This document shows positions 1-31,600 of a stretch of DNA of 42,946 bases, piece by piece. Position 1 is the stretch's first letter. Every line of letters starts with the position of its first letter. Under the pieces are notes generated by a model. The model was not told the origin of the DNA. It ran no database searches and was given only the letters and a program-made list of their open reading frames with translations. The stretch covers positions 64,001-106,946 of the IMG/VR virus record IMGVR_UViG_3300014204_000003; one strand, 5' to 3'. This DNA comes from a virus (lineage: Duplodnaviria > Heunggongvirae > Uroviricota > Caudoviricetes). The position numbers were made by a program, and so were the translations under genes.

Positions 1-135
1 TACGGCTGCAAGTACCAAGTCCTTAGGGACAATACGCCCATGTTGACGTTTTTTAATCTTCTCAATTTCATGGGTCAGGACCTTAACATTGATCTTTTGC
101 CTTGCAGCCTTTTTTATCCCATAGTGGATATCCAT
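1..135 (-). CDS. Partial ORF running off the window end (MDIHYGIKKAARQKINVKVLTHEIEKIKNVNMGVLSLRTWYLQP...), hypothetical partner of the RAMP-like gene
   Basis: ATG at 135-133, 6 nt after the stop of the 142-819 gene; open to the window edge; not in the ORF track. Confidence 0.6.
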   Translation of the reverse strand, partial: MDIHYGIKKAARQKINVKVLTHEIEKIKKRQHGRIVPKDLVLAAV

Positions 136-141
136 AATTTA

Positions 142-819
142 TTACCTTTTGGATTTTTTAACACCTTGGTCATCAAACGCCTTAGTGTCCACATGGAAGG
201 CGCCATATTCTCCATTCTTTTCTTGGCGCCACTCTCCAACCCCGACAGCAAAACCCGCCGTGTTAAAAAGGTTGACAATCTGATCCCGGCTAAGGAGATT
301 AGCATTGAATGAAACCGCCAGAAGGCATTTCCATGGAAAGAACTGTCCGCGATATCGGATGTCGGCTACACCCATTCCTATGCGCACCATATCCTCGCGC
401 ATTTCAGGTTCCGATCCCTCAACAGCGACAAGATTAGTTCTCATTTCGGAACCGTTAAATACCGTTTTAACGGGAGCCATTTCTCCAATCACCCTAAATG
501 CTTGCCGGGCCGCAATCTTGGTTACTCCCGAAAGACTGGTACAAGCTGTTACGGCTGCATTCTTGAAAGCCACGGAGGGGAATCCGTATCTTCCATCAGG
601 CATCCTATAAAGAGAAGCTTCATAATCAGCAACAGGGTCCTTGGCTACTCTCCCGGCGTTAGGGTGTTTCATTTGCTTATCAAGCATTTCCTTAATAGCC
701 TTCTCGGCCCATCTGTGACAAATTAAAGCCGAATCTCCCACAATAGGGATCATCACGGTTTCGATATTCAATGTAGCTAATGAAATTCCAACGGCAACAT
801 CAGTTTTTTTAGCAACCAT
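142..819 (-). CDS. Stand-alone RAMP/Cas7(Csm3)-like RNA-binding protein (Vipr-like), ~225 aa
   Basis: Start reassigned to ATG 819 (GGGAG upstream). RAMP-like motifs in order: IPIVGDSALI (beta1), YGFPSVAFKNAAVTAC (cf. Csm3 IPGSSLKG), REDMVRI, IRYRGQF..W...L.V.F, and the C-terminal Gly-rich loop AGFAVGVGEWRQEKNGEYGAFHV. Confidence 0.75.
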   Translation of the reverse strand: MVAKKTDVAVGISLATLNIETVMIPIVGDSALICHRWAEKAIKEMLDKQMKHPNAGRVAKDPVADYEASLYRMPDGRYGFPSVAFKNAAVTACTSLSGVTKIAARQAFRVIGEMAPVKTVFNGSEMRTNLVAVEGSEPEMREDMVRIGMGVADIRYRGQFFPWKCLLAVSFNANLLSRDQIVNLFNTAGFAVGVGEWRQEKNGEYGAFHVDTKAFDDQGVKKSKR

Positions 820-844
820 AATTTTTAATTCTCCCGAAGTTATT

Positions 845-866
845 TTCCACAAGGTCCGCTGTGGAA
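845..866 (-). promoter_or_regulatory. Stem-loop between array and RAMP-like gene
   Basis: Minus strand TTCCACAG-CGGACC-TTGTGGAA: 7 Watson-Crick pairs plus one G-U; no U-tract. Confidence 0.5.
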
Positions 867-884
867 TCGCGGTACTACACTTAA

Positions 885-1593
885 ACTCCCAGACTGCCTC
901 GGCGCCCTTACCCCGACCCGCCCGAACTAAACTAGACTTTCCATAACCATCCTAGACTGCCATGCCTAACACACCAATCACAGACCAACCATCCTCTCCT
1001 CACTCAGCCTGTCCATGACTGCCTTGCCTGTCCCAGACGGTCCTTGCCGGTCCGTACCAATCCCCTCCGTACCTATCCATGACTGCCTTGCCTGCCATAC
1101 CAATCTCGCCTCGCCAATACGTTCCAGTACTTACCTTTCCTAGACTGCCTTGCCTATCCTCGCCGCACCGCTCGTCACCATAACTTCCTTGCCTGCCATA
1201 CCACGAAAATACCTCGCCACTTCGGGAATAGGCTTTATAGCCTGCCTAAACCCGCCCATCCAGTCCAGAACAAGAACCACCTTTCCTAGACTGCCTTGCC
1301 TCATCGCGCCTTGACACGACTATCCAATGAACGCCTTGCCTGCCCGGCCCGAACTTCCATTCCGCTACTCGCCACACCGGACCCTGACTGCCATGACTCT
1401 CCTCGCCGCCCTGACCGCTCCTAAACACACCCATCCCTGACTGCCAGACCAATGCTCGACCGGCCATGCCGTTACGCGCCTTAACGCTCCTCGCCGCACC
1501 TTGACTGCCATGCTGTTACCAGACAATCCCCACATTACCTCGACTGCCCGGACACGCCTCTCCATAACTGACCCCTCAATAACCTACCATGAC
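885..1593 (-). repeat. Noncoding array of 5-nt-periodic G[G/T][A/C/T]NN units punctuated by GGCA-GTC junctions (putative guide-RNA array)
   Basis: Ten exact GACTGCC (+ strand) at 892, 955, 1017, 1081, 1143, 1289, 1386, 1439, 1503, 1542; spacings 63, 62, 64, 62, 146, 97, 53, 64, 39. Example block 1083->1024: gtcat ggata ggtac ggagg ggatt ggtac ggacc ggcaa ggacc gtctg ggaca ggcaa. Confidence 0.9.
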
Positions 1594-1600
1594 AAAATAT

Positions 1601-3781
1601 TTATAAGATTGAAATATCCCCATTGCAAAGTTCTATCCGGGAATCCGCCAAATCCTTCAGCCGATCCTGATGGGCAATGAAACAGACTTTCTGGAAATTC
1701 CCAATCTCTTTTGCCCGGCGAAGCATCTGGATGTATCGAGGAGCATTTTCATCATCCAAGGCGCCAGTGGTTTCATCCCGGAAGAGAGTTTGCCAAGAAA
1801 CGCCGGATTTCATTTTATTGAAAACGGCAATTGCCAAGCTTACGGATTCAGCGATGACGACCTGTTCTCCCCCAGAGTATCCATCGATACTCCCTTCCCG
1901 GCCTTTCTCGGAATCGATAGCGATGATGTCAAATTCGTCCTTATATCCGTTCCCATCCGCCTTGAGAACCTGAGTGACGAATTTGATACTGAATCTTGGT
2001 CCGAAGCATGAGAATAAAAGGTCATTTGTAATACTACTCACAGTCGGTCCGGCCGCATCTATTTCCAATGATTGAATCCCGGAAGGGCCGAATGCGTCAT
2101 TCAGGAGGCTCCATTCCTTCTGGTCCCGTTCGAGAGCAGTAATATCTCTCATGATAGGCACTAACTTCTTGCTGGATGCCACAACTCTAAACTGGAGGTC
2201 TTCAGCTTGGGTTATCTGCTTATTAAGACTATTGACATCACCTTCAGCAACTACCTTCAATGCGGAGGCGGTACTGTAATCGTTATTGGCAATAACCAAA
2301 GATTCGTTATAAGAAACGATATTTTTGCCTTCTGATTTAGCTTTAATGATTGCCGCTTCGGCGTGATCCTTCCCTTCTTCAGCGGCAATCATTTGCTCTT
2401 TGATTTCTCCGACCTTGGCTTTCGCCTGCTCTACTTGGCTGGAGATTGAGACTATTTTCTCGAGAGTTTTAATTCGAGGTTCAATAATTGAGAGTTTCCT
2501 CTCCAATCCTTCTATTTGGAGGTCATAATTAGCAATTAGGTCGGCATTTGGCTTTGGAATAGCTTTCTGCTCATCCTGAATCTTGAGCATTGATTGAGTG
2601 GTATTCAGAAGGTCAACCTGAAAACCATCAAGATTTTCTCTGGCTTCCGTGGCGCGAAGGAGGAATTGGCATTTTGCAAAATCACCCTCAGCCTTGCATG
2701 GAACCTCATCAATAGTGGCAGAGGCTAATTGAGCGTCTGCAATTGATTTTTCACAGAGTTTCTTTGTACTTTGAAGCTGCAACCAGCGTTGCCGGAGTTC
2801 ATTAACCTGCCTGTCGTACTCCACTTTTTCCAATTGAAGGTCCCGGCGCTGGATGTTTAATTGATTCAGTTCTTTTCTGGTATCTGCCTGAGTGGTCCGG
2901 GCGACCGATAATTCCTGATTCGCCTGTTCTACCTGATCTGCGCTTTCCAGTAATTTTTGGGTAATATCCAATCGTGTTTTTAAACCAACGATCTTATTTG
3001 TAAACCCGGTATACTTTTCCGTCTCTGCGGCTATAAGGTCCTGAATCCCCTTTAACCCGGACACCTTGGATTTAAGGGACCCTATTAATTCTGCCAATTC
3101 ACATATTTTTTCAGATATTTTGCGGACATTCTCTTTGCTGGTATCCAGTCTAATTTTTAACTGCTCAATATCTGGCACTTCTTCTTTTGACTGTCTCTCG
3201 ATCGTTGCCGCTTCCGACCGCTTTGCTAGGAGTTCGGAACTGCATAACTGGTGTTCTTTGCGAAACTCCTCTGTTACGCGCTGGAGGAGTTCGAGATTGA
3301 GCATCTTAATAAATAGGCCTTTGCGCTCAATCTTTGCGAGTTTAATGAAGCTTCCACGCTTATTCTGGGCCGCGAAAGAACTCGCCATCACCATATCGGA
3401 GTTTCCGAATAGCTTGGCTACTATGGCATCGAAATCCTTTGTCTTTCCGGTTATTCCCGGAAGAGGATTCTGTTGATCGTCGTAGAGGAACGCCTCCATC
3501 TTCGAATACACAGCATCTATGTTGACTACCGCTTCATAAATCTTGCCGTGCCAGTCGAATTTGAAATCAACCAAAGCATCCCTGCCCTTGCAGAATTCAT
3601 AAACACCAGGCCTCGAGGGAAGCATCCGATACAGAGAGAGAAACATCGATTCCATCAATGATGTTTTCCCTTGGCCATTTTTCCCGGTAATAGCGATAAG
3701 CGATCCGGGGATATCTGAGAAATTCACATGGATGTCATTCAGAACAGTGACGCCCCTGACCTTCATTTCGATCGGTATCAT
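1601..3781 (-). CDS. sbcC: SbcC/Rad50-like SMC ATPase
   Basis: Walker A GKNGQGKT, long coiled coil, signature YSGGE, Walker B FRDE, H-loop IAHQ. Start reassigned to ATG 3781 (ATGA overlap with upstream gene). Confidence 0.9.
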   Translation of the reverse strand: MIPIEMKVRGVTVLNDIHVNFSDIPGSLIAITGKNGQGKTSLMESMFLSLYRMLPSRPGVYEFCKGRDALVDFKFDWHGKIYEAVVNIDAVYSKMEAFLYDDQQNPLPGITGKTKDFDAIVAKLFGNSDMVMASSFAAQNKRGSFIKLAKIERKGLFIKMLNLELLQRVTEEFRKEHQLCSSELLAKRSEAATIERQSKEEVPDIEQLKIRLDTSKENVRKISEKICELAELIGSLKSKVSGLKGIQDLIAAETEKYTGFTNKIVGLKTRLDITQKLLESADQVEQANQELSVARTTQADTRKELNQLNIQRRDLQLEKVEYDRQVNELRQRWLQLQSTKKLCEKSIADAQLASATIDEVPCKAEGDFAKCQFLLRATEARENLDGFQVDLLNTTQSMLKIQDEQKAIPKPNADLIANYDLQIEGLERKLSIIEPRIKTLEKIVSISSQVEQAKAKVGEIKEQMIAAEEGKDHAEAAIIKAKSEGKNIVSYNESLVIANNDYSTASALKVVAEGDVNSLNKQITQAEDLQFRVVASSKKLVPIMRDITALERDQKEWSLLNDAFGPSGIQSLEIDAAGPTVSSITNDLLFSCFGPRFSIKFVTQVLKADGNGYKDEFDIIAIDSEKGREGSIDGYSGGEQVVIAESVSLAIAVFNKMKSGVSWQTLFRDETTGALDDENAPRYIQMLRRAKEIGNFQKVCFIAHQDRLKDLADSRIELCNGDISIL

Positions 3782-4047
3782 AATCTCGTAACCTTTCCGT
3801 TGTTTTCCGGATACCAGAAAATAGCATCCCGGCCGGCTTCTTTTAAAATTAAGGGTCCATGAGGGACAAAGAACCCATTCAGAAGCCCAATAAGTTGGGC
3901 AGTTCCCCATATGGATACTTTATCTCCGTCATTTTCGTAATAACCTCCCGCGGACCCGCAATCACAAGTCCTTGGGTCCGGCTTTCCGGATTTGAATCCA
4001 CGGAGTTTTATTACATCATGGCATTTGGTGCAGAAGATCAGTTTCAT
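3778..4047 (-). CDS. Small Cys-rich, probably Zn-binding protein
   Basis: CTKC and CDCG motifs; ATGA overlaps with both neighbours. Confidence 0.7.
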   Translation of the reverse strand: MKLIFCTKCHDVIKLRGFKSGKPDPRTCDCGSAGGYYENDGDKVSIWGTAQLIGLLNGFFVPHGPLILKEAGRDAIFWYPENNGKVTRL

Positions 4048-7201: not shown

Positions 7202-7687
7202 CTATGGGCATGGCCTTTTCCCCAGTAAAACATTAACCATAAGTTGGATATCCAGAGAATTAACAGATCCATCCCCATTGATATCTCCGGCAAGCAATGG
7301 GGGTTTTTGAATGACAGCATTTGCAACGCCTTGAAGATCGAGGGTGTTAATATTGCCATCGCCATTATAATCACACCGAGAAGTCGGCACGAATGCAATG
7401 ATTTTACTCACTTCGTTGGAATAATCGCTTTCATTGCCAGCGGCATCAAAGGCAGTAACGGCGAAGTAATAAGTGCCGAAGGTCAGGCCGGTTACTATGT
7501 AATTGGTTTGATTGCCAATAGAGATAGGGGGGCCGTAAACTCTGCTTTCAGTTCCAGTGTATATGCGGTATCCTGCTATATTCTGGCTTACGCTAGAATC
7601 CCAAGCGAGAGGGACATCTGCTGCTGCGAGGATTGGGATTATTAACAGCGAGACAAGCCAGCCGTAAAGAATCGTTTTAAAAAGCAT
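7202..7687 (-). CDS. Secreted FN3 + dockerin-like (paired EF-hand) protein
   Basis: Signal peptide; FN3 (LAWD..AGYRIY..GTYYFAVTAFDAAGNESDYSNEV); two Ca-binding repeats DYNGDGNINTLDL and GDINGDGSVNSLDI. Confidence 0.85.
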   Translation of the reverse strand: MLFKTILYGWLVSLLIIPILAAADVPLAWDSSVSQNIAGYRIYTGTESRVYGPPISIGNQTNYIVTGLTFGTYYFAVTAFDAAGNESDYSNEVSKIIAFVPTSRCDYNGDGNINTLDLQGVANAVIQKPPLLAGDINGDGSVNSLDIQLMVNVLLGKRPCP

Positions 7688-9657: not shown

Positions 9658-12600
9658 TTATTGGTTTGGTGGGGGCTCAAGTCCCGAGCCGGGGGGAGAC
9701 GGCAACGACTCCGACTTTTTACTTAGCATATTTTCATAATGATCAAGAGCTCCGGCGGCGATACCATCCATTACTTCTTTGATCTCTTTAATTCGAGCAT
9801 CTTTAAGATCGGTTGGTATATTGACATCACCCCTGAGGGACCACAGCCGTCGTTCTTGATTAGAGAGGTTCCGGCTTGTCCGCGCAAACCTTCCTTTCAG
9901 CTTGGCCAAAGGATACCGCTCTAGTAATTTTTTGCGGTCTTCTCCTTTATTGATCCTATCTGCGACTATTGTGGATTGCCTTTGGACATCCTGATTGGCG
10001 TTAGCAAATCTCCGTGTGTTATCCCCAATATTTCGTTTTTCCCTGGATCGATCCTTAGACGCTTCTCTGATAATACGGGCTTCTTTCCTTTCCCTTTCTA
10101 TTGTTCCATAACCTCCAATCTTAACTACCCTTCCGGCAAATTTCCCGAAAACCGGATCATATTGAGTCCATGTCTGATACCAATTCTGGTCAGAATTATC
10201 GAACGTCTGATATTGACCTAACCCCAATTGATTTACAGAGAAGAGAAACATCCTCCAGTTAGCTTCCAATGACAATCTGCCTTCTTCGGCAACATCTGGA
10301 GGAAGAACATTTCTTCCCCGGAATCCATCCTTTGGGTTCCTTCCCTTGAGATAGAACTCATAATAGGCAGAACCTAACTGTCCGATTGGGGACAGACTTG
10401 GAAGCAGCGCCGTCATGAAATCGACAACATTTTGCCATGTATTTGGATCATTGGCTTCCATGCCCCTGAGTATTGTGGACATAATCCCAGTAGAAAGCCG
10501 GGATCCTTCATCCAAAGGCATGGAGAAGAATATGGGTTTACCGTCCTCTGTCTCTGCAAATGGGACATTCAGGTAATTCGATTCCATGTAATCGGAAATC
10601 TGCCCATATTTATCCTTAAACCAATCGCTAAGTTCATCTCCTAAAAAGCTCTTAAGAGCGCCGGCCGCCAGTAAAGCTGCAAGCACTTTAAGGAAGGCAA
10701 TCTTGCCAGCACGGAGGATATACCCTCCTCGAGTATTCGGATTGGCGAAGGTCTGATATTCACTCACCCACCCTTGGAGGAACATGGTTGCAAACGGGAA
10801 GATTCGGTTCATGTATCTTCCAGCCTTGCCCTGCCGGTACCATGCCGGAGTGCTGGTAAACCGTCTCATGTTGAAAGCGAGCGTTTTCCCTTTTTCCCCG
10901 GCGCCTACGCGAACGATGTGTCCAGCCGTTTTGCCCATCAATTCGAATAATTGGCTTGGGTAAGAAAGCTTTTGGAGGATCCACATCGCTCCCCGATACA
11001 TCTTGGCTGCCGACCTGGGATCGATATCGCCATTATCAGTTATAACCCCGACTCTCTTAAGCAAATGATGATAAGGATCATTTTCTTGGGACACTACATT
11101 GGAAACTGACACCGACCATTCATAGGAAGAAACCATTTCCTTAATCATGTCATCGCCCTTGCCAGCCAGCCAAGAACGGACATGTGGATAGGCTTGGCCA
11201 TAAGCGCGAAGTAATTGAATAAAGTCTCCGAAAAAGACTGTATTCTTGAGAGGAAGCTTTTTGTAATTACTCCAGAAGTCTCTATTGGGATTTCCCCATC
11301 CTCCGAACCCTAGATTATAGAGAATAACTATCTTCCACCACACTTCATGGAAATGGTTAAGCCATTTAAAGCCATTGGCAATAGGAGTGGGACCTCTCTG
11401 GTTGATGGAATCAGCGATGTATGGGTCCATTTGGTATCCAACCGTTTTGCCGTTCTCGAGAATTTCCACAACTTTCTTGTCAGGTTCGGCTCTCCAAGTC
11501 GGAATTACATCGGTGGTTACGATAGGTTCAGCTTTGGATACAGCTCCGTGCTCATAGCTTCTGAAGAAATCGATGGTAGCCCGTTTGGCTTCTTGAATGG
11601 TAATGAGATCAATCAAGGCCAGTCTCATTTTGATATCTGAGATAATTGGATTCTCAACATCCCCAGCAAACCCGATCTGAGCCCGGACCATAGGGCTAAC
11701 ATATTTCGATATATGTTCTGCTGATACAAACTTCACGTAATTGTATTTATTTTCCTCGAAGCTTTCCTTGGCCCGTTCGGGATATATCCCCACTTCAAAT
11801 GCTTTCTCAACCAGTGGCCAATAGGCATCCGTGTAGGCATGGGCGGTATCTTCCAAAGCTTTGAATTTGACATCCCCCATTCTCTCGCGCAGCCGGTCCA
11901 GCGTTTCGGTCGCGTAGGCGCCACCGGCTATTTTGGGGTTCGCCACATTTGCTCTCTGAGTGGAAGAGCGGTGCAGAAACATATAAATCCCTAAAGCCAT
12001 ATAGGGACTGAAAGGCTCATTATTCTTAATAATGGAAGTCTTTCCGCTGGGGCTTTCCACAACCAGAGATTCAAATTTATCGTATCCAATGTCTTGTGCG
12101 GTAATCTTTGCCGGAAGAAGATATTTTTCGAAAACATCTTTCTGGAGCTTATCCATGAAGAGCCATCGATTGTTGTAGCTCTTGAAATTAAGTTCATCCC
12201 AGAGATATTTAGGATTCTTGGTTTCCGGGATAAGACAGCCGGCCTTTTGAGCTCTATTAACGCGCTGCTCGGTTTCCCATCTCATATCAAAAACATAGTC
12301 CTTAATACTCCCCCAAAATGCCCGATGAAGCTCATGGACTTCCTGTTCGATATTTCTGGAGATAGCTTCCGCCTTCTGGATCATTCCTCCCACCAGATTA
12401 ATTCTATTGTCCAGGTAATCTTCCGGAGTGTTACCGGACATCATCATCCTCAACTTGACATAGGCGTCCTTGAATTCCGGTTTCCGGTCAAGATAAGCAT
12501 GGAACTCCCGGGTAAACTTCGGAGCCAGCCGACGAGCGGTTCCCGGAGAATTGAGCATCACGGACACAAAATCAGCGTAGAGCTCTCGAGGGCTTCGGCG

Positions 12601-15600
12601 ATACTTAATATATCCCTCAGTTTCCTTCTTGGGGTCGTAAGGCTTCCAGTATTCACTGAGAGCGATAAGTTCATCTTTGAATTCCTTGGCAGCGGGGATT
12701 ACCTTATCCCAATGTTTTTTGCGCATACGGCGAAGAGTAAGCAACCGGCCAAGTAAATTGCCCCGGTTGAGTGTCTTGTCTGGAAGCCAATCAGCCAAAT
12801 GGCCAATTTCATGAGCCATAGTACGAGCTAATTGCTCTCGATTCTCAGCCTTAAACAGGTCCGGACGGATTTCGATCTTTCCTTCATCGATTCCCGTAAA
12901 CCGGCCAAGACTTGAGCTCAGTCTTTTATTGAGCATGATTGGCTTGCCGGTAAGTTCATGAACGATATTCATTAACTCCGGAATTTCAATTCTTCCCCAC
13001 ATGTCCTCTTCGGTGACATCCGAGGTTCCGTCACCATAGGAAATAATCCGGAATTGGTGGGACTGATCATCTATAGTCCATCCTTGAGTAACCGGCTTCA
13101 CTACCGCAGTTATTGGGTCCAAGATAATGCCGGCCTTACTTTCAACCTCATCGATAATTTCCTGAGGGATCCTGCCTTGAGAAAGCCGCGGGGATATCGT
13201 TTTCGTTTCAATAGTGGCGATATGGTTGGGGCCCTTTTCCTCTTCTCTCGCCGATGCGTACATCTTTTTCCCGACCTTGGCTTCGGCAATATCAGTGCCC
13301 CATCCAGACCTTGTAGTAATGGAAGGAACTTCATAATCACTTGCCGTTTCTGGCTGTTCTCCAGGAGTGGTTTCCATATCCTCTGGAGGAGTGGGTAGCC
13401 CTTCTTCTTTCTTTGGGCGGACCTTTGCTTTTCTTGGCTTGATATCCAATCCGCTGACAAATGCCCTGTCTCCTAACTGTTCTTCTCCTATACCGCGTTC
13501 CCGGGCCAGTTCTTCAATGGTTTTATCGAGACGTTTGGCGTCTTCATATAAAGTAACGAAGTCAGTTGCTTTCTTGAATTCGCTATTTAAGGTATCCAGC
13601 CGCTCCATTAACTTAGTGATTTCCTCTTGAAGCTCATCCCTTTCCGCATACGTTTTCTGGATATTATCTTTATGCCCCTGATATCTCCGGCGAAGGCTAT
13701 CGCTTGCTTCTCCTCTTGCAAAGGCTTGCTCTATGTCGTTGATACTTTTTTCGCGCCATTGGACATCATCAAGAACATTCTTTAAATGGCTGTGTTTTCT
13801 TTCGACAATGGCGGTTATTTCCTGTTTCGCCTTCACTACTGAGGTTATTGCATGTTTCGCCCGGAAGTAATCCAGAGTATCGGTATTAATTCCGGCCGAA
13901 TCCGAAAGCTCTTCGAAGTTTCGCCCATCCTGATCAAAGTCTAAAACCTCATCGGCTTCTCCTGTCCAGAGTTCCAATCCCCATTGATACTTTCTCGCTA
14001 TGAGGTCATACATTTTTGCATCACTGGTTCCTCCGACGAGGAAGCGATAGATTTTAACACTATCGTTTTTATTCCCCTGCCGGAGTCCACGGCCGTCCGC
14101 CTGTTCCATTGCTGCAAAGTTATATGGGACATCAATATGATAAATGGCATTGGTGGAGGTCTGAAGGTTCATCCCTTCGCCCATAGCCGCCCGACTGCCA
14201 ATAAGGAATCGTATCTTTCCTTCGGCATTTAACTGCTGAAGCTTGAACTTTGCTTTGGCGCCGGAATTAACCTGCCCATTTACGATTGCAATTTGATCCT
14301 CTGGGATCCCACTTTCGACAAGGCGATCTTTAATAACCTGGTGCAGGTTTACCAATTCAACAAAATGCTCGTTTTTCTGCTCTTGCTGGAGGTCATCGTC
14401 GTTATCTCCCGTTGCAGCTTTGCCGGAGTCAGGATCATCTTCTTCGGTGATTCCACCACGATATAGATCAAGAAAGACTAATTGAGTGTTTTCGCCCGTA
14501 TCATTGTCGATCATGAGCCTAACGACTTCGGCTATCTTGGTCCCGGGTTCACCAACTTTATCTTTAAATTCCTCAGCATCATAGATAGCCGCATCCGCAG
14601 CTAGTTTCCGCGCTCTGGTAAGAATTGACAGATGATTGATCCCATCCATTTGAGCGGCGATGGGATCACTCTTCAGATAATCCTCGAGCCATGCGATGTA
14701 GCCGGCCGCTTCCGTTATCGGGCCAGTCGGGGGAAGTTTGATGTCGATATATTCTGCATCCGGACGTTTGATTCCAAGCATCTCAATAGTGCGGAAATCA
14801 ATATAACGCCGGAAGATATTGCGCAACTCAGTCAGGTTTTTGTATCCTGCCCATACTGTTTTGGATGTTGGAACGCCTAAGGCGCCCTTAACTTCCCTGG
14901 TTTCCATTCTTCCAAACTGCTCAATAAAATCTCCCGCATTATTAATGCCGCGATTCGTCCATTCATCCGGAGCTACATACTGCATCATGACGTAGATTTC
15001 TGCTGGATGGTTTGGGGTAGGAGTAGCGGTCATCATCCAAACATTCTGACCTTTTCGGCCGCCCCGGCGCTCATGAATGTAACGGGTTTTATAAATCATA
15101 TCATCAGCGCGTTGTGCGGACTTGGCCTCCCGAACGTATTCCGCCATATCCGCATAATCACGTGAGGCATTTTTATAGTTGTGCCCTTCATCGATCATGA
15201 TGGCGTCAACTCCAAGATCCTCAAAATACATGGTCTTGGTTTTCTTCATCTGTTGCAGTTTAGTGAGTTTTTCCTCGAGACGAAGAAGAGCATTCTGAAT
15301 ATCCTGCTCATGTTTCTTTGCTCTCTTGTCTGATTGCTTTGCTGACGCTTCCTGCGCTGCCCGGAGGCGGTCCTCGAGTTTTTTGATATCCTCTTGGATA
15401 TATTCCTCTGACTTTCGAAGAGGAATCTCTTTCATTCCTTCAAATGTTGCGAGAACAAAATCCGCGTCACTGACAGCAAGCCGCTGGAGCATCTTGTATC
15501 TATTATTAGCATCCATCCCGGACATATCTACGATTTTTGCATCCGGAAGAGCTTGAGATATTTCATAGGCCCAGTTTTTGACAACCTTGGACGGGACAAT

Positions 15601-18600
15601 AATTAATGGCTTTTTAACCTTATTCCTGTTTTTTAAATGAGCCGCCAAGAGAATGGCTGTTAAGGTTTTACCTCCTCCGACTGCATAGGAGATAATTCCG
15701 CTGCCTTGGTGCGTCATTCTGCCAACGCCCTGCCATTGGTGAGGATTTATCGTTAAGAGCTTACCCTTGAATACCGCACTCAGCCCGGGGATATCCAACT
15801 GCTTAGGAGAATAGAACCTTTCCCTGAATGATCTATAGGCACGGTTATATTTTGGAGTGATGCTTTCAAATTTATTGAGATTTTCGTTTCCCCACTTCCT
15901 GAATTGCTCAGAAATGGCGGTATATATCTTCTCTCCTGTCTGGTCGTAAATCTTTTTCATAGTCGGCCGTCCGCGAGAATCAGTCCTCCCTGTAGGGACT
16001 TCTTTTTGGGGCCGATTATGATTCAGGTAATCCTGGATGAATTCTGTTGAAAAACTTTTAACCTTTTCAACGGAACGAGTCCTTTCAATTCCAAGGTCGT
16101 CTTTGTATTGCTCATCCTCCATGACTTTGGTTTCCTGCTGGCCGCCATAACTGGATTTAAGTTCCCAAAAATATCTGCCTTTAATAGGGTCCAGTTCCTT
16201 GGAAACTTTATCAATCCATGGAGCATATGAATGAAGGAAATCAATTACAATACGGTCCTCAATATAAGCTGAAAATGGGTCTGATCTTCGGACAACTTCT
16301 GCGGAATCGGCCTGCGGAGGAAGAACCTCACTCAGTTTTGCCAACTGATTCTTTAATGCAGCAATAATCCTATCTTTCTCTGGTCCTTCAGGATGGTCTC
16401 CGCGCACTTGGTCTAGCATCTGTACGGTCTGATCTATTTTGGGATGGATGTCACCAAACAGATATTCATCGTTGATTTGCATGATTGGCGCTGAGGACCC
16501 ATCCAAGGCTTCAATGCTGAAATCCGGGTTCCCTACGAGCCGGGATGCCATCTTATTAATAACATCCGGAGTCATTTGATCTGGACCGATCAGGCCTTCC
16601 CCGTTATATCTCGCGGCAACTTCAGCCCAATCCATATCTCCTGTGTATTCATAAATGAATTTTGCCGTATCCACCAAATCCGTAGCATCAAACTCCCGGG
16701 GTTCCGGAGGAGGAAGGTACAGATTATTCTCAGAAAATATTTTACTCAGGCTGCCATCTGATTCAGTTAAAGCGGCAAGCTTCCACACTCGAGGATCAGC
16801 GAAAGGATACGGGCTGGCCGCAGGTCCTCCATTCAGATATTTCCATAAGTTTGGATCCGATGCCGGCGAACCGGTCGGATTCTGTTTATCGGTTGCCCAT
16901 TTCTTCTGATAAGCTGCCAAGAGAGGCTTTATCTGCGCTCTTAGGCTATCAGCGGTATCGACATCGTTATTTCTGAGAGACTTAAATAGATCATCGGCAA
17001 GTTCTACTAATTTAAGACCTTCTCTAACTCGATGATATGGCGAATCTTCCTTTTTGGTTTTCTTTGTGGAAATCTTTGGAAGCTCGGTTGCCTCGAGAAT
17101 TACCCCAGTTCCAGACTGAGCAAATCCCCATTTGCCTAATTCATCCATCCAGACGATAGTTCCGGGCACCATCCCCTGAGGAGTTTCTCCAAGGACATCC
17201 CGAATCTGCAATTCTTCATCTTCTTCAATCTTTGCAGTTGTCTCTTTGGCTTCATACCGGACATCATCGAGGAGAGCATTCTCTAACATTTCGGCATATC
17301 TTTCCTTGTCCATGACTACGCCGACTCTAGTTTCCTGCCCGGCCCGTACTCCATGTCCGGGCTTTAATTCCCCCCAAGCTTTCTCAGGGTGCTTTACGTA
17401 CCATTGGGAGAGATGCCCTCCGATGGGATTCTCATCTCCATATAAGGAGTTTATAAAGTCATCCTGATAATCGTCTTCTTTCCAGTTTTCAATTTCCTCC
17501 GGAGTGCGCTTTCTCAGGAAGATAATATCCGTGCTTCCATCGTATTGAGTATTGGCATGGTATTCTCCGGCTGGAGTTCGATAGGCGCCCAAGAACTCAG
17601 CCTTCCGGTTAATGCGCTTCCGGACATCAACCTTGCCCTTGCTAACACCGTCCATAGTCCCGGTACTGGTAATGAACATGACAACACCATTGGGCCGCGT
17701 CATATCCAGGGACTTCACAAAGAAAAAGTCATGAAGGGCTTTTATGTCTTCGTATTCTTTAGCTTCTTCTGCGTACCTCGAGGCGCCGCGGGCAGCATTG
17801 AATGGGACATTGCTCGCCATTACATCAAGATCTCTGCGCGGCATGAATTGCTCGAAGGGCAATTCCCTGATATCGGCATCCGGATAAAGAAGCCGGGCCA
17901 CTCTTACCGCGGTGGGATCAATTTCAGTCCCAAATAGTTTTGCATCGGCCGGCGCAAATCCCGGGATATTACCAATTCCGAATGCAGGGTCCATGACTTT
18001 GAGATTATCCATGGGGAATCCCATAGACCGGAGCTTGTCCCATTTCCAAGCGCAAATCCTGTAAGAGGTATAGTGTTCATAAAGGACACCCCTCTCCTGT
18101 TCTGTACTTCCAAGTCCGCCAGAACCGGTGTATCTCCTGAGGAGTTCAGTTTCCTCCTCTGTGAGGGGGTCTCCGGGCTGTTTTTTCTCTACGAGCTCTG
18201 CAACCTTGGCATTAATTTCACGCCGCTGGGTTTTAGTGAGGACTACGGATTTTCGCCCTCGAGGGGAGAATCGGGCCCCTTTTCTGGATTCTGCTTCAAT
18301 ATCTGATTCTTTAGCAGCTCCTCCAATTCCTTGCTCGGGGGGTAGCCCAAGAGAAGATCGTGTGTCAGGTCGCTCAGTAGGTTCGATTCCCCCAGTTTTG
18401 CCACCACCTTCGGGAATGATTCCTTCACCTTGCTCACGATCTCCTTTGCTCGCTTCTCCGCCTGATAAATCCGCGCCAACTCTGTCGAATGCTGCATAGA
18501 CTCCTCCGGTTCCACCGACGTAATCTTCCTCGCCGGTTATAGCCGACCATATTTTCTTGAATAATGGTTCGAGGACATCTCCGAGACCTTCCGCAATGTC

Positions 18601-21600
18601 CTCTGCCTCGTCATAAATAGACGCATGCCATTCTGACCGATCGGTTATGCCACTATTGTAATATTCATCCCCTAAGTCCACCAACATGCCAAATACTTCT
18701 GGGTCCGCAAGCATACCCTTAACGTCGGGACCAGCTTGCTTGCCGCCAGGTTCAATTTCTTCCGCAGTCTCGAATCCAGCCTCTTGGCTTTTCTTTTTCA
18801 GGTTCTTCCGGATCTCGTCCAGTTTGGAACTCTTAATCCGGGCGGGAGGCTTGCCTATCGGCGCCGATTCTCTAATAGACTGCGGACCGGTAATTATAAT
18901 TTCTTCCTGCTTCTGAGGCTTTGATTCCTGAGGAGGAGGAGCAAGCTCTCTCTTAACTTTTGATATCCCGGATTTTGCAATAAAGGCATCAATCTTGGTT
19001 GGGTCGGAAGGAATACCTTTCAAATCTGCAACCGCCCGGACAATCATCCGGATTCTGGTAGGCTTCATCCCGGCCATATCCTTGGATATTGATTGGGCAA
19101 TTTCACTCACCGGTCGCCCATCCAAGAGTTCGTTCACTATCTGATTGGCGACCCCAAACTTCACTGCATCATTATATTGCGCCCTGACTACCGGAGTCTC
19201 CACGGGACCTAAGTCCATATCTGGAAGCTTGCTTAAAATATCCTCAGGCGGAGCTTCGAGAGACGAAGGAGGTTCCGGCTTCTCCATTTTTTCAGGAACA
19301 GGGGGTATACCAGGTTCAATAATCTCCGGAGTTGGAGGAGATTCCAGCCCTTCAGGGAGTTCTCCTCCTCTCTTTTCCATAGTGCCGGCAGCGATATCTT
19401 CGGCCTTACCGGTGAGGAAGCGGAAAGTATCCGGAAGAGATTCCGTCTGAGTCTTAAATGAGTTGATTTGAGATTGCAAGTTCTCGGGGCTGACAACCGC
19501 GGTTGCAAATTCCTCCCATTTATTGGTCTCGGGATTCCATTTCTCTGCACGTACCCCAATTGTGGCTTTGTCGGATTTTGGTTCGACAATCCCCATAAGC
19601 TCGTGGTCCGTACCTTCTTCAACTGCCCGGGAGATATCGTCTTGGCTTATTCGGTCAGGTCGATAGAAATAAGTTCCCTTGCCGGCTATTTCTACTCTTT
19701 CCGCCCCGGTCATTCCGGAACGGATATTGAAGTTATTTAAGGCATCCGATTGTCCCCATGCGTCCATTGTCGTCTCGGGAACGAAGACAACTTTTCGGGT
19801 ATCCGAATCGATCGCATCAAGTTGAGACAGGATCGTCTCAGGTTTCTCTGGAAACGTCTCTTGAATTTCCTTCGGCACTCGGGCGCCCGGGATCTTGGGA
19901 ACATTCTGGCCCTCATAAAGATGGTCCATCCACCGTTGAGCTTCATTTAAAACTTCCTGAGAAGGTCCCAACCCTTCTTCAGATGAAATCACCAATTGGA
20001 CTTGGGGATTATCCGGACTCCCTCCAATCTGTGCTCCAACATGGAAAGCCGTTTCGGGAATATCTCCCATATTCTCAGAGAGGTAATGGGTAATCTCATT
20101 GGCAATTCTACCAACACCCCTTGCGGCATCCTTCTCATTCTCGGGAAGATTTTCTTCCCTGAGTGCGGCCATGACATCGGCTTGCGCGAGATTACGGACA
20201 AATGATGTCCTGGTAGCCGGATCCGGAATTAGAGATTTAAACTTCTCGCTAATCTCATCCACATTCCGATCGACCTCATCTTTGTCAATCTTGTCCCGTT
20301 CGGCATAGAGGCTGCGCAATACATCTAATTCCTCGTCAGGAATGACGCCTATTTCCTTACTTAACTCGGGGAACGCACTTGGATAAATGGGCGCTTGCAT
20401 GACGGCATCTTCACCATATTTCGCTGCCAAGGCGTCTTCTGCCGCGTCTATTTCCTTCTGTACCTCATCATAGGTTTTGGTGGAAGGCGGAGCAGTCTCA
20501 GGAGTCATAGCCGGAGCCACTGAGGGGGGAGGCGTAAGTTTTGCATCCAATTGTTTCTTGGCGTCAGAGAGTTTTTCTGATAGCTCGATATAACGAGTGG
20601 GGTCGCTTTCTCCCGATGCTTGTTCTAGTTGGGCATCAAGCTCCTTAATAGCATTGTCAAGTGCGTCAATCGTAAGGTCTGGGCCTACGGGAGTTGGAGG
20701 TAGCCCCGCTTCAATCGGTGGCGCTGGAACGGCTTCAGTTGGAGGAGGCACTACGGCTGGGGCTTCCGGAGCGGCTGGCTTCCCTTTGGCTGGGGTTTTT
20801 GCTGGCCCTCCGGTTGTCTTTGTAGGCCTCTCCACTGGAGGCGCCGGTTGTCGGCCGGGAGCATTATTAATATTGTCGACCGCATTCTTAATATCAGTGG
20901 GAGCGATGGTTTGCGCCAGTTCCTTCTTCTCTTGAGGCGACATGTTATTGTAAGCAATAGTCGCTTCGGCCGCGTCGACCTTACGGCCCATCTTTGTAGA
21001 TATAGTCTCAATGACGGAAGGGAGATGCATGGCGCCGACTGCGACAAATGTTTGAATGCCTGATTCGCCACCGGCTGCCAATCGTTGTCGGATATCTCCA
21101 TCTGTCATGGCCGCAGTAATACCGGCCGCAGCAATCCCATATCCGACCGCAGATTGCAAAGCCCGGCCTACCGCATATTCAGCCGGCGCAGCCGCATATT
21201 GATTAAGGTATTCCCTAAAAGCTCGATATTCGGCACTCTGGCGTGGGATGCCTTTTGAAAGTTCAGTAATTACTTTAGAAAGATTAGGGTTCCGCAAATC
21301 TATCTTAAACTTAGTTCCAAGAGCTCGGATTACCGGAGCCGCCCTCATCATTTCCCCAAGGAAGGCGATGGAATAAGAATGAATGATAGCATCCTTGGGT
21401 TTCTCTCCTTTGGCTATAGCCTCAATCGTGCTGGCAGTGGCCATTACCGTTCCGGCTTCTGTGCCTTGCATTACAGGAGAGATCACGTGATCTATAAGCT
21501 TTGGATGTCTGAGAACGAAATCCAATGTCTTGCCAAATTCAGGATAATTCTTTGCCAAACTTTCAATAGTACTCCCAGCGATTTCAGCAGATGCCGGCGC

Positions 21601-28622: not shown

Positions 28623-31600
28623 TTAATACGTTGCCGGAGGCGCCGGTTCTGGTCGGCGGTGAGTCTCTTCAGTATTCACGTCTCTGAGAACTATATTGGT
28701 CTTTGCCCAATCGATCTCGAATGCCTGGTTGGAACTGAAGCTATATCGGAATAATTTGCCTTTATACCCTCCCGGAAAATCCATTCTGCGAACTGAATAT
28801 TTGGGGTAAATATCCCCATTGGCCGGAATCGTGAAAGTATTTTTAAATGTGTTATCTATTAAAATATCCAATTGAACATCTTCATTTGGATTCTCAATCA
28901 CATAAAACATTTGCTTAAGAATCTTCTTCCGGGCATAAGCCAAGACTTGCTCGAAACTATCCGCAAGAGTTACATCCGGATTTCTTTGATCGGTAATGTA
29001 GTTTGGGGCAGTATAGAGCCTTACCCCTTGAGGGAGACCATCAGAACCAACTTCATCCACATCAACCGTGATTCTTCCTATTTTACCGAACGACTCAGCG
29101 GCAAGAGATTGAACGATTCTCTGGCGAACATCAGCAACAACTTGAAATGTCTGTGAGACCTGGTTATCAAGCCAGAAAGAGAATTCAATAAGTTTCCCTT
29201 CTGTGTCGATATCCAATTCAACGTGCTTCCAAAGTTTTCTGTAAGGGAATCCGTTATCAGTCCAAGGCATTTGAATGGTATTGAGAAGAGGAGGTTCAGG
29301 AATACATTCAAATCCAAATCCATAAATCTTAACTTCCCAATCTCCATCAGTATAGAATTTGAGTCTGGAAATTATTCCTCTCTGATCTATTCCAAGGCCA
29401 TAATAGAGTTTCCTCCTGCCATCAGCGGTAATATTATCGACAATCGTTTTTATAATCTGATGATCGACTTCGACCTCAATCTTCTCGAGAGGATGCCCAA
29501 AAGTATCCATCTCCACCCAAAATTGATGGAAATATTTGGGGCCCGGAGTCCCGCAATAATCCCAATCAGTAACGTGGGTGCGTCGGCGTTGTGGCTCGAC
29601 AAGGACTCTGTGGATTATTTTGTAGATCCGGGTAGAGGCATCGGCATTGGGGTCTGATTCGAATTGCATCCGGACGCTCATGCGAACGGCGAATCTGCTA
29701 TTCTCTTCTCCCATAACTATTGCGAAGGGTATCCTTTGTCGGCCGAAAGTCTGGATCGTACCAACAGGTTCGAATTCTCCGCCATCGAAACTTACTTGGA
29801 GCGTAACTGGATATCCTTGGGTGTCAGCGTCGACTACTAATTCAATGAATTGCTTCTCCTGATCCGGGAATCCAAGGTCATATTCTTTGGTATCAATAAT
29901 GCAGGGAATCCCATAAGTGACGAGGGCGCCGGTAATCGGAGCCGAACATTCATCCCCATTCCCATAATCAAGATGCATGGGATAATTTCCGGACCTGCGC
30001 ACATCAACTGGAACTCCCGGGACTACCGCATACCATTGAGTGAGATTATCGCCAATCAGAAGATTGGTCTCCGGCTCGAAGAACAGGTTTTGAGCCCCGT
30101 ATATCCTCCAACTCCATCTCTCGTAAAGGGTGTCCCATACAAGCATCCTGTCATTACGGATTAATGGATCAGTAGTTGAGCAATAAGAGAACATGAGTTT
30201 TGAATCAGAGAATCCCATGGACTCTTCCGGCTCCCGGCCGGCAGCAATTGCCTCAATTCCATTTACCTCTTCTCCGAAGAATATTGGATTTATCGGCTCG
30301 GAAATCTTCCTGCCATTGGGAAACTCATAAATACCATCATAAGCCCGCATAAATAGTCCGCGGGTTCCCCGGCATGCGCAGAACTTATTAGACAGCCCTT
30401 GGTTTACGGATGTGCTCTGGGCTCGGTAAACCCCATCTTGGCCGACAATCCGATATACCTTTGTCGTCGTGAAGATAAAGAGTTCTCCGTCATGCTCGAG
30501 AACTCTTTTGATTTCTTCGTTTCCAGACCCAACATAGATATAGTTTTCCGCGGGGAAGTGCTCAATCCTTGTGCCTTTGGAATATCGCAGGCGGTTAAGA
30601 GGTTCGGCAATGCCATCGAGGGATATTCCACCCCATGTCCACATACGATTATCCCAGATTTCGCATCCTTCTACTCCTTCTGGGGAAAGCTGGTTGTCTT
30701 CCTCGATAACATCGCCGGCGTCGATATCAGAAACATTGTCAATCCACGAGAACGCGAACCCTTCGATATAATCGATTTCAGCTATTCTCTGGAATTGAGT
30801 CAGAGTTCCGCCCATTCGGTAAATACGAATCTTATCTGGATTCGATAGTGGCGGCGCAGTCGATGGAGTCGGAGGAAAATTCAGTTGGATCTGCTGATCT
30901 GTTAGGGCTCCAAGATTATTAATAAATGGATCCGCGAAATCGCTTTCAGTATCGGTCTTGCTGTTGTAGAAGGTATAGGTCCACTGGAAATCACTCCCAT
31001 TAAGCTTGCCCACGGGAGAATAAAGAAGGTTATCGAAACTGACGATACAGGTATTGGCACCCACTCCTGGGTCCGCTGTGACTATTTCAACTATTACCGC
31101 CGTTACTGTCTGCCATCCGAGATTAGGAAGAGTCGTACCACTATTATTCGTGAACGCGAAATCAGACTTATAAAATCGAATCTGAGAAAAAACTCCTCCG
31201 GTGAACCCGGAAAGGTCTGTTTCTTCGGCTACAGCAAAGTATTTATATTTTCCTCCAGCATCTCCCGGAGTGTCACTCAATACAAACTTTAACCTTACCT
31301 TGGTGCAATTTGATATAGAATCTGCATCGGCGAACTTTACTGATATCTTAAAAGATTCTGCGGGGTCCAAGCCTCCGAAGTCTTTTACAATTTGATCTCC
31401 ATCACTATTCACAAATATCTTTAATGCACTTCCAAGTTTGGCAGCACCAACTACTGTCATCTTTAATGCATTAGCCGTTTCTCCGGAAGCATCATTTGAG
31501 AGGACTCCAGCATTGGGGATTAAGGGCTCAATGGTTGAATATACAAACCCATTCACTGGTTCATCGTATATTGTCGCCAAAGCGATCGGAACATCATTTA

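What the first reader, a model, noticed from the sequence alone, without database searches (positions are those of the whole stretch)
885..1593. Array grammar is G[G/T][A/C/T]NN with 4-nt GGCA resets and 12-pentamer blocks
Seen in the two cleanest blocks. 1505->1446 reads gtcaa ggtgc ggcga ggagc gttaa ggcgc gtaac ggcat ggccg gtcga gcatt ggtct; the other is 1083->1024. In both, position 1 is G in 12/12 and position 3 is never G, while positions 4-5 vary freely. Each block is 12x5 + GGCA = 64 nt. GGA and GTH units are common, so the constant motif is broader than the GGY I recall for VIPR. Readable dinucleotide strings: aa gc ga gc aa gc ac at cg ga tt ct (1505); at ta ac gg tt ac cc aa cc tg ca aa (1083); ta tg at aa ta ta cg gg gg aa (957); ta aa aa ct ac tt ga ga (1145). 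Inference: each block is one guide for a ~35-bp gapped site, and this may be a distinct sub-type.
Basis: seen in the sequence. Interest (0 to 1): 0.85.

Follow-up and report, generated by a model that had tools for sequence, protein, structure and literature searches.

The report
Phage VIPR guide-RNA array, staggered type
The five-base repeat tract is real. It is the guide-RNA array of a phage VIPR system, a CRISPR-related RNA-guided DNA-silencing device first described in 2026 preprints, so it is a new example of a known kind and not a new system.

Summary
The pentamer grammar is real. On the minus strand of 853-1600, a cyclic 5-phase model finds 131 in-register pentamers. Position 1 is G in 89%, position 2 is G or T in 94%, position 3 is never G, and positions 4-5 are free. 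Lag-5 G autocorrelation is 0.35 (z = 9.3).

Fourteen GGCAG[T/G]C boundaries each shift the register by -1, through a 4-nt GGCA unit. Only two units are clean 12-pentamer, 64-nt blocks. The others measure 39-63 nt, and five in the middle are 48-49 nt.

The gene just downstream (142-819, minus) is a Vipr RAMP protein. Its family profile hits the solved SUSP1 Vipr (E = 4e-7) with the G-loop and thumb contact residues kept. Its model matches the reference Vipr X1U2U4 and Cas7/Csm3.

In 84 related loci the same grammar recurs: GGCA resets, blocks of mostly 9-10 pentamers, and a conserved small partner gene. Substitutions between related arrays concentrate at positions 4-5.

This fits the published 'staggered vrRNA array' architecture. 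The looser G[G/T]H motif follows low GC as a continuum and is not a discrete new sub-type.

No target was found and no RNA data exist. The scan has already found such arrays in at least six other genomes.

The parts
880..1598 (-). vrRNA array: about 130 pentamers of G-[G/T]-[A/C/T]-N-N, cut into about 14 units by 4-nt GGCA register breaks. It starts 3 nt after the stop codon of the upstream SbcC-like gene and ends about 60 nt before the vipr start codon.
   Evidence: No Rfam family, promoter or terminator match.
1446..1509 (-). Clean 64-nt unit: GGCA plus 12 pentamers. 11 of 12 fit G[GT]H; the exception is GCATT. Its NN string is AA GC GA GC AA GC AC AT CG GA TT CT.
   Evidence: No stable fold (z = +1.4).
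1024..1087 (-). Clean 64-nt unit: GGCA plus 12 pentamers, all 12 fitting G[GT]H. Its NN string is AT TA AC GG TT AC CC AA CC TG CA AA.
   Evidence: Fold z = -1.1.
899..961 (-). 63-nt unit: GGCA plus 10 in-register pentamers, then an internal -1 slip (GGGC).
1150..1392 (-). Five shorter units of 48-49 nt (GGCA plus 9 pentamers), with boundaries at 1392, 1344, 1295, 1246 and 1197. Three of these boundaries use the family-typical GGCAGGC form.
1198..1246 (-). Degenerate, largely non-periodic unit (3 of 9 pentamers fit) holding a small AGGCU/AGCCU hairpin. Its role is unknown.
   Evidence: fold z = 0.02.
142..819 (-). vipr gene: a 225-aa stand-alone RAMP/Cas7-like protein. Its G-loop GVGEWR (E196 W197 R198) and thumb R157 align with SUSP1 Vipr D177 W178 R179 and R138.
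1..135 (-). 5' part of the partner gene (candidate vap). The full gene is 156 aa and runs beyond the window start, to genome position 63665. It belongs to phrog_15946.
   Evidence: A homologue lies on the same strand next to vipr in 77 of 84 related loci.

Best explanation
The tract is the guide-RNA (vrRNA) array of a phage-encoded VIPR system with the 'staggered' architecture.

It is most likely transcribed on the minus strand, together with or just ahead of vipr. By analogy with the solved SUSP1 complex, one Vipr protomer binds each pentamer. Protomers sequester positions 1-3 (here G, G/T, not-G) and present positions 4-5.

The presented dinucleotides pair with double-stranded DNA, skipping every third target base. 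A 9- to 12-pentamer unit would therefore read a 26- to 35-bp gapped site and silence it.

Each unit ends in GGCA followed by G. The final pentamer GGCAG shares its last G with the first pentamer of the next unit. This -1 register break most likely stops one Vipr filament and starts the next, and so defines the individual guides without a structured tail, a ribozyme or a Cas6-type repeat.

Shown here: the grammar, the Vipr homology, the family-wide co-occurrence of array, vipr and partner gene, and the concentration of variation at positions 4-5.

Inferred: transcription, processing at the break, filament punctuation, the 1-nt-skip rule for this clade, and the targets.
For: 1. Period-5 grammar far above chance, and present only here in the genome.
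2. The adjacent same-strand gene is a Vipr.
- The family profile hits PDB 36pp_D 'SUSP1 Vipr protein' at E = 3.9e-7. GVGEWR aligns with GVGDWR, and the thumb arginine is conserved. These residues are invariant in 59 homologues.
- In the cryo-EM preprint they contact G1, G2 and Y3.
- The AF2 model (pLDDT 84.6) matches AFDB X1U2U4 at E = 5.6e-10 and TM 0.62/0.77. X1U2U4 is the reference Vipr used in 10.64898/2026.10.21.760802.
- The model also matches Csm3/Cmr4/Cas7.
3. All 4 annotated phage loci and 78 of 80 IMG/VR loci encoding homologues carry a period-5 G array on the vipr strand. GGY outnumbers RCC 4391 to 569.
4. Family grammar over 5557 pentamers:
- G 0.89; G 0.75 / T 0.14; C 0.57 / T 0.31 / A 0.08 / G 0.045; positions 4-5 free.
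- 502 of 637 register breaks are 4 nt, and 331 are GGCA.
- 256 distinct blocks bounded by resets hold 7-13 pentamers, with a mode of 9-10. NN entropy is 1.8-2.0 bits at all but the first pentamer.
5. Between related arrays, mismatches rise from 1.8% at position 1 to 22-23% at positions 4-5 (chi-square p about 1e-40).
6. A partner gene of phrog_15946 sits beside vipr here and in 77 of 84 loci.
7. The closest long relative, L091 (Vipr 67% identical), has the same array-vipr-partner order and GGCA-GTC boundaries.
8. The published description fits: staggered arrays with 1-nt overlapping vrRNAs, 9-16 repeats per vrRNA, and alternative consensus motifs.
Against: - No RNA evidence exists for this phage.
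- The preprint states that the other two array architectures were confirmed by sRNA-seq. It does not say this of staggered arrays.
- No convincing target was found. Own genome and 84 related loci show no match above shuffled guides. Exact gapped patterns gave no hit in IMG/VR.
- The single hits in JGI metagenomes and in GTDB genomes equal the number expected by chance.
- About a third of the units are degenerate: internal slips, and one non-periodic unit.
- Position 3 is A in 31% of pentamers. In SUSP1 the Y3 pocket excludes purines, so binding details must differ.
Confidence: 0.88

Rival explanations
1. The array is a largely decayed or orphaned remnant. The grammar persists from ancestry, but most units no longer make working guides, and the locus has little present function.
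For: - Only 2 of about 14 units are clean.
- Several units have internal slips, and unit 1246-1198 is non-periodic.
- No targets were found.
Against: - vipr and its partner gene are intact, with all invariant family residues.
- Position 3 never carries G in 131 pentamers, and the boundary motif is kept 14 times. Both argue for ongoing selection.
- The identical array occurs in samples of two separate studies.
Confidence: 0.05
2. The repeats act at the DNA level and not as RNA guides. They could be iteron-like binding sites or a G-rich structural element tied to the neighbouring replication and recombination genes (SbcCD-like, SSB, DnaD-like loader).
For: - The tract lies between SbcC-like and SSB/DnaD-like genes.
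- GG every 5 nt could in principle form two-tetrad G-quadruplexes (my own inference).
Against: - In 84 loci the array follows vipr and not the replication genes. Its neighbours differ: methyltransferase, Gp3-like, integrase, tape-measure contexts.
- It is always on the vipr strand.
- Variation is concentrated at two of the five positions. That is the signature of a code, not of a binding site.
Confidence: 0.03
3. The array is a true Vipr-bound RNA array but follows another targeting rule: RNA targets, a different skip length, or position 3 contributing to specificity.
For: - Position 3 is only semi-constant (A/C/T), and its substitution rate is intermediate at 10.7%.
- The 1-nt-skip rule was established on type II systems and applied to types III and V. 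It was not tested on staggered arrays.
- No 1-nt-skip target was found here.
Against: - The G-loop and thumb residues that set the SUSP1 geometry are conserved.
- The four best cross-matches of family guides to rival vipr or partner genes all lie on the coding strand with the skipped base at the wobble position, as published. This is weak: 3 guides with 2 or fewer mismatches, against 1.3 expected.
Confidence: 0.04

Closest known systems
VIPR systems with 'staggered' vrRNA arrays (bioRxiv 10.64898/2026.04.26.720920, text and fig. S18 legend)
   Same: - Phage-encoded stand-alone Vipr RAMP gene plus a small partner gene.
- Same-strand array of pentanucleotide repeats with three scaffold and two variable positions.
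- Consecutive guides offset by one nucleotide, so the end of one is the start of the next. Here this is GGCA|G.
- No structured tail and no ribozyme.
- 9-12 repeats per guide, within the published 9-16.
   Different: - The scaffold is G-[G/T]-[A/C/T]. Only 36% of pentamers are strict GGY.
- The array lies upstream of vipr, whereas 72 of 84 relatives have it downstream.
- The first pentamer is usually GTC.
- Which of the seven published types this clade belongs to could not be determined, because the supplementary data are not held.
- The preprint does not say that staggered processing was confirmed by sRNA-seq.
Type II VIPR of Escherichia phage SUSP1 (Vipr + vap1 + vrRNAs; structures in bioRxiv 10.64898/2026.04.26.720927; PDB 36pp)
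   Same: - Homologous Vipr: profile E = 3.9e-7 over the thumb-to-G-loop region, with [D/E]-W-R and the thumb Arg kept.
- 12-repeat guides.
- Presumed 1-nt-skip reading of about 35 bp.
   Different: - Similarity is detectable only over about 70 C-terminal residues.
- SUSP1 vrRNAs are about 100 nt, with an invariant 3' tail and pseudoknot, and are separately spaced. Here there is no tail and the units abut.
- SUSP1's position-3 pocket excludes purines. Here A makes up 31% of position 3.
Non-canonical VIPR repeat clusters found by Evo-PIN entropy periodicity (bioRxiv 10.64898/2026.10.21.760802, section 2.3, fig. S10)
   Same: Period-5 arrays next to Vipr-like folds whose fixed trinucleotide departs from GGY or is degenerate at one position.
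   Different: - The motifs named there are GAC, CAC, WGT and TGH. G[G/T]H is not among the examples quoted.
- Those clusters are described as 10-repeat units.
Class 1 CRISPR-Cas (Cas7/Csm3 backbone filaments on crRNA)
   Same: - RAMP fold (Foldseek E about 5e-5, VIA Z 8-9.8 to Csm3/Cmr4/Cas7).
- One protomer per fixed RNA step.
- The thumb flips out bases periodically.
   Different: - No CRISPR repeats or spacers, no cas1/cas2, no Cas6 and no large or small subunits.
- A 5-nt step with 2 of 5 bases read, compared with a 6-nt step with 5 of 6 read.

Membership tests
VIPR system | A stand-alone Vipr protein: minimal RAMP with RRM core, glycine-rich loop and thumb. | tested here: met
   - Profile hit to PDB 36pp_D 'SUSP1 Vipr protein', E = 3.9e-7.
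- AF2 model pLDDT 84.6.
- AFDB X1U2U4 at E = 5.6e-10, TM 0.62/0.77.
- Csm3/Cas7 top hits in PDB.
VIPR system | Residues that hold the scaffold bases: SUSP1 D177, W178 and R179 in the G-loop, and R138 in the thumb. | tested here: met
   They align with E196, W197, R198 and R157, which are invariant in 59 family members. D to E is the only change. H17 and the helix-1 pocket residues could not be aligned.
VIPR system | Tandem pentanucleotide repeats (GGY/NN or a related consensus, at least 4 units) beside vipr on its strand. | tested here: met
   131 pentamers. 108 of 130 fit G[GT]H and 47 of 130 fit strict GGY. The array ends about 60 nt upstream of the vipr start, on the same strand.
VIPR system | Scaffold positions conserved and NN positions hypervariable across related arrays. 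| tested here: met
   - Mismatch rates of 1.8, 6.1, 10.7, 22.2 and 23.2% at positions 1-5 in 8 related array pairs.
- NN entropy of 1.8-2.0 bits at all but the first pentamer.
- This was tested on relatives. No variant of this phage's own array was available: the copies in two studies are identical.
VIPR system | An accessory vap gene next to vipr. | tested here: inconclusive
   - A conserved 156-aa partner (phrog_15946) follows vipr here and in 77 of 84 loci.
- Its identity with any published vap1-6 could not be checked.
- It has only weak winged-helix-like structural leads, TM 0.34-0.37.
VIPR system | vrRNAs are expressed, processed and bound by Vipr. | not testable with these tools
   The test needs an RNA data set or an experiment. 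The public runs that hold this DNA are assembled contigs recorded as DNA, and those cannot show RNA or its ends.
VIPR system | Guides match natural DNA targets by the 1-nt-skip (NNx) rule. | tested here: inconclusive
   - No match above shuffled guides in own genome or related loci.
- Exact patterns gave 0 hits in IMG/VR.
- One hit each in JGI metagenomes and GTDB genomes, about the number expected by chance.
- Collection scans allow no mismatches.
VIPR, staggered-array architecture | Abutting vrRNAs whose pentamer frames overlap by 1 nt, without tail or ribozyme. | tested here: met
   - 14 boundaries GGCA|G[T/G]C, each a -1 register shift.
- 502 of 637 register breaks in the family are 4 nt, and 331 are GGCA.
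- No Rfam hit. Units have no stable fold.
VIPR type II (SUSP1-like) | Each vrRNA ends in an invariant structured 3' tail (pseudoknot). | tested here: not met
   The only constant sequence between units is about 12 nt, GGCA[A/T]-GGCA-GTC. Fold z-scores are -1.1 to +1.4.
VIPR, ribozyme-interspersed arrays | Hammerhead ribozymes between vrRNAs. | tested here: not met
   cmscan against Rfam 15 at E up to 1 on 700-1800 found no match.
CRISPR-Cas | Array of 23-50-nt direct repeats with unique spacers, plus cas1/cas2 or a multi-subunit effector. | tested here: not met
   The period is 5 nt. The only RAMP gene stands alone between an SbcC-like gene and a phrog_15946 gene.

The most novel reading that the evidence does not exclude
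In this clade the -1 register break (GGCA|G) may itself be the punctuation mark. Vipr filaments would assemble pentamer by pentamer and stop where the register breaks, and the unprotected junction would then be cut. Guide length (7-12 repeats here) would thus be written into the array without any tail, ribozyme or dedicated nuclease.

In addition, this low-GC sub-clade's Vipr would read a looser scaffold code (G, G/T, anything but G) than the GGY code solved for SUSP1.

Neither point has been shown experimentally for staggered arrays.
Probability: 0.35. Interest if true: 0.5.

Novelty: new member of a known kind. Interest (0 to 1): 0.3.

Why it matters
It adds a well-resolved, low-GC example of the least-characterised VIPR array architecture.

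It also supplies family-wide numbers that the preprints do not state in their text:
- 4-nt GGCA breaks in about half of all register shifts.
- Blocks of mostly 9-10 pentamers.
- G excluded but A tolerated at position 3.
- Scaffold composition that follows genome GC.

These numbers give concrete hypotheses for how tail-less guides are delimited, and for how strict the scaffold code needs to be. That matters for engineering minimal RNA-guided DNA binders. It does not reveal a new kind of system.

Tried and rejected
- **Fourier power at exactly period 5.** Not significant over the whole tract, because of the -1 phase resets. I used autocorrelation and a phase-aware HMM instead.
- **Single-sequence structure prediction of Vipr.** Unusable at pLDDT 39. 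I replaced it with an alignment-based model.
- **tblastn of Vipr against phage records.** It found Mycobacterium, Gordonia and cyanophage homologues but not SUSP1.
- **Self-targeting.** No guide matches its own 107-kb genome above shuffled guides.
- **Exact 1-nt-skip patterns in IMG/VR.** Units 1509 (12 and 10 dinucleotides), 1087 (10) and 961 (10), plus one mycobacteriophage Saal guide, gave 0 hits.
- **JGI metagenomes, unit 1087.** One hit in a GNAT acetyltransferase gene. The flanks do not extend it and the skipped base is not at the wobble position, so I judged it chance.
- **GTDB genomes, unit 1087.** 0 hits.
- **GTDB genomes, unit 1509.**
  - One 22/24 match in a Paludibacteraceae MAG, in a tra-like region with the skip at wobble.
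  - About 1 hit is expected by chance in 596 Gb.
  - No other guide hits that contig above shuffles, and the one other guide tried on the whole MAG (unit 1087, up to 3 mismatches) gave 0.
  - I treat it as unresolved and probably chance.
- **Cross-targeting among 84 related loci.** No overall enrichment. Restricted to vipr and partner genes, there were 3 guides with 2 or fewer mismatches against 1.3 expected.
- **L091 guides against this phage.** Nothing.
- **RNA evidence.** No RNA holder is listed for this DNA. Contigs from two studies are identical over the array, so they give no variation to analyse.
- **Rfam, sigma-70 promoter and terminator scans.** Nothing found.
- **VIPR type number.** The supplementary tables are not held, so the type could not be assigned.

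Full report
**What is in the sequence**

All genes in the window lie on the minus strand. The flagged tract sits between an SbcC-like ATPase gene (1601-3910, phrog_77) and a 225-aa gene (142-819, phrog_4652, unknown function).

On the minus strand, G recurs every five bases.
- Lag-5 autocorrelation over 885-1593 is 0.353, against -0.002 +/- 0.038 in Markov shuffles (z = 9.3).
- Windows inside 821-1680 give the 32 highest values in the window. In the 107-kb genome, a single viral contig, all 39 highest windows lie in the array.
- A Fourier test at exactly period 5 fails over the full tract. The phase slips back by one base at each unit, which is also why the autocorrelation peaks drift from 5/10/15 to 19/24/29.

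**Grammar**

A cyclic five-phase HMM with a penalty for register jumps places 131 pentamers in register.
- Position 1 is G in 116.
- Position 2 is G in 79 and T in 44.
- Position 3 is A 41, C 56, T 34 and never G.
- Positions 4-5 are close to uniform.

The fitted model carries 2.17 bits, against 0.14 +/- 0.06 for the same procedure on shuffles. Started neutrally, 108 of 130 pentamers fit G[GT]H and only 47 fit the canonical GGY.

**Units**

Exact GGCAGTC occurs ten times, and four more boundaries read GGCAGGC. At each one the register moves back by one base: GGCA is a 4-nt unit, or equivalently GGCAG shares its last G with the next pentamer.
- The boundaries lie at 1548, 1509, 1445, 1392, 1344, 1295, 1246, 1197, 1149, 1096, 1087, 1023, 961 and 898.
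- The spacings are 39, 64, 53, 48, 49, 49, 49, 48, 53, 9, 64, 62 and 63 nt.
- The 64-nt, 12-pentamer block therefore describes only two units exactly. Five middle units hold nine pentamers.
- Several units carry extra internal -1 slips, and unit 1246-1198 is mostly non-periodic.
- The periodic tract starts at about 1598, three bases after the upstream stop codon.

**The neighbouring protein is a Vipr**

VIPR (Viral Interference Programmable Repeat) systems were described in 2026 preprints. A small stand-alone RAMP protein, Vipr, coats a vrRNA made of GGY/NN pentamers. The NN dinucleotides then read double-stranded DNA while skipping every third base (10.64898/2026.04.26.720920 and .720927).

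The evidence that the 142-819 gene encodes a Vipr is as follows.
- A profile of 59 homologues of this protein hits the solved 'SUSP1 Vipr protein' (PDB 36pp_D) at E = 3.9e-7.
- GVGEWR aligns with SUSP1 GVGD177-W178-R179, and R157 aligns with the thumb R138.
- In the cryo-EM work these residues hold G1, G2 and Y3. They are invariant in the family.
- An alignment-based AlphaFold model (pLDDT 84.6) matches AFDB entry X1U2U4 at E = 5.6e-10 and TM 0.62/0.77. X1U2U4 is the reference Vipr used in 10.64898/2026.10.21.760802.
- Among solved structures, the model matches Csm3/Cmr4/Cas7 backbone subunits.

**Relatives**

The family is large: 4432 proteins at E <= 1e-5.
- All four annotated phage loci examined carry period-5 G arrays beside the gene on its strand. 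These are Gordonia phages ODay and Pipp, Mycobacterium phage Saal and cyanophage Cy-LDV1.
- So do 78 of 80 IMG/VR loci.
- Across 96 arrays and 5557 pentamers the composition is G 0.89; G 0.75 / T 0.14; C 0.57 / T 0.31 / A 0.08 / G 0.045; then two free positions.
- Of 637 register breaks, 502 are 4 nt and 331 are GGCA.
- 256 distinct blocks bounded by such breaks hold 7-13 pentamers, with a mode of 9-10. Twelve is in the tail, at 15 of 256.
- Between related arrays, mismatches are 1.8, 6.1, 10.7, 22.2 and 23.2% at positions 1-5. The pairs are not fully independent, but every pair shows the same direction.
- A 156-aa partner gene (phrog_15946) follows vipr here and in 77 of 84 loci.

**Is it a distinct sub-type?**

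Use of T at position 2 and of A/T at position 3 falls as locus GC rises (Spearman -0.40, -0.30 and -0.69). This phage, at GC 0.47, sits at the low-GC end of a continuum.

The nearest long relative (L091, Vipr 67% identical, GC 0.49) shares three features with it: array-upstream order, GGCA-GTC boundaries and 9-12-pentamer blocks. There is thus a sub-clade, but the grammar is that of the whole family.

The preprints already report much of this:
- A 'related consensus' in some types.
- NNNGG, YNNNG and NNNNG repeats.
- Other non-GGY motifs.

The locus is not type II. There is no conserved structured tail, and no ribozyme or other Rfam family. The type number could not be assigned because the supplementary tables are not held.

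**Mechanism**

Shown here: the grammar, the Vipr homology, the co-occurrence of array, vipr and partner gene, and the concentration of variation at positions 4-5.

Inferred from the published type II work: one protomer per pentamer, scaffold bases buried, NN presented, and DNA read with a one-base skip. Under that rule 12 pentamers span 35 bp and 9 span 26 bp.

My own inference is that the -1 break ends one Vipr filament and begins the next, and so delimits guides. The preprint says that the ribozyme-interspersed and single-vrRNA architectures were confirmed by sRNA-seq. It does not say this of staggered arrays.

Position 3 accepting A but never G suggests a pocket that differs from SUSP1's purine-excluding one.

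**Targets**

None was established.
- Own genome and related loci give nothing above shuffled guides.
- Exact gapped patterns gave no IMG/VR hit.
- One hit fell in a GNAT gene of a metagenome contig, with non-extending flanks and the wrong frame.
- One 22/24 hit fell in a tra-like region of a Paludibacteraceae MAG, with the skipped base at the wobble position.
  - About one such hit is expected by chance in 596 Gb.
  - No other guide converges on that contig.
- At family level, the four best matches of guides to rival vipr or partner genes all lie in the coding frame with the skip at wobble (for example an L040 guide matches 19 of 20 positions in a vap homologue). The excess is small: 3 against 1.3 expected at 2 or fewer mismatches.

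**Expression and occurrence**

No RNA run holds this DNA. Contigs from a landfill study and a groundwater study carry the array with no differences.

**Verdict**

This is a genuine VIPR vrRNA array of the staggered kind, and so a new member of a known kind. Earlier follow-ups in this scan reached the same classification for similar arrays in at least six other genomes.

Noticed in passing
window 9658-22728 (-): A single 4356-aa ORF with an SNF2/ResIII helicase domain around residues 2327-2533 and no other Pfam assignment over most of its length. It may be a giant virion-associated or anti-restriction protein.
   Followed up: partly
window 7202-7687 (-): A 161-aa protein with a fibronectin type III domain and a C-terminal dockerin type I repeat. 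This is unusual for a phage and may be a clue to the host or its environment.
   Followed up: no
window 28623-32945 (-): A 1440-aa protein with a jacalin-like lectin domain (residues 276-400), probably a tail fibre or receptor-binding protein.
   Followed up: no
window 1198-1246 (-): One array unit is replaced by non-periodic sequence with a short AGGCU/AGCCU hairpin. It might be an internal promoter, a terminator remnant or an insertion scar. The fold is no better than shuffles.
   Followed up: partly
L087 3987-4015 (= G001:C8:27984-28018), Paludibacteraceae MAG: Guide unit 1509-1446 matches 22 of 24 coded bases, with the skipped base at the codon wobble position. The site is in an ORF next to a weak CTnDOT TraJ-like gene. 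About one such hit is expected by chance, and no other guide hits the contig.
   Followed up: yes
L040 4182-4231 versus L014 3891 and L037 3915 (vap homologues): A guide of one IMG/VR phage spells 19 of 20 coded bases of the conserved ...QARGLIRSV... motif of the partner gene of other VIPR loci, in frame with the skip at wobble. This may be VIPR-against-VIPR targeting, as reported for other clades.
   Followed up: partly
L091 1853-2928: Three 'genes' called on this Logan contig lie entirely inside its pentamer arrays and are almost certainly spurious ORFs. Annotation pipelines miscall vrRNA arrays as proteins. Window ORFs 1246-1467 and 1365-1565 are spurious in the same way.
   Followed up: partly
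window 1-2200: The identical sequence, with 0 differences over the array, is assembled from a landfill metagenome and from groundwater metagenomes of a different study. The phage is therefore not confined to one sample.
   Followed up: partly
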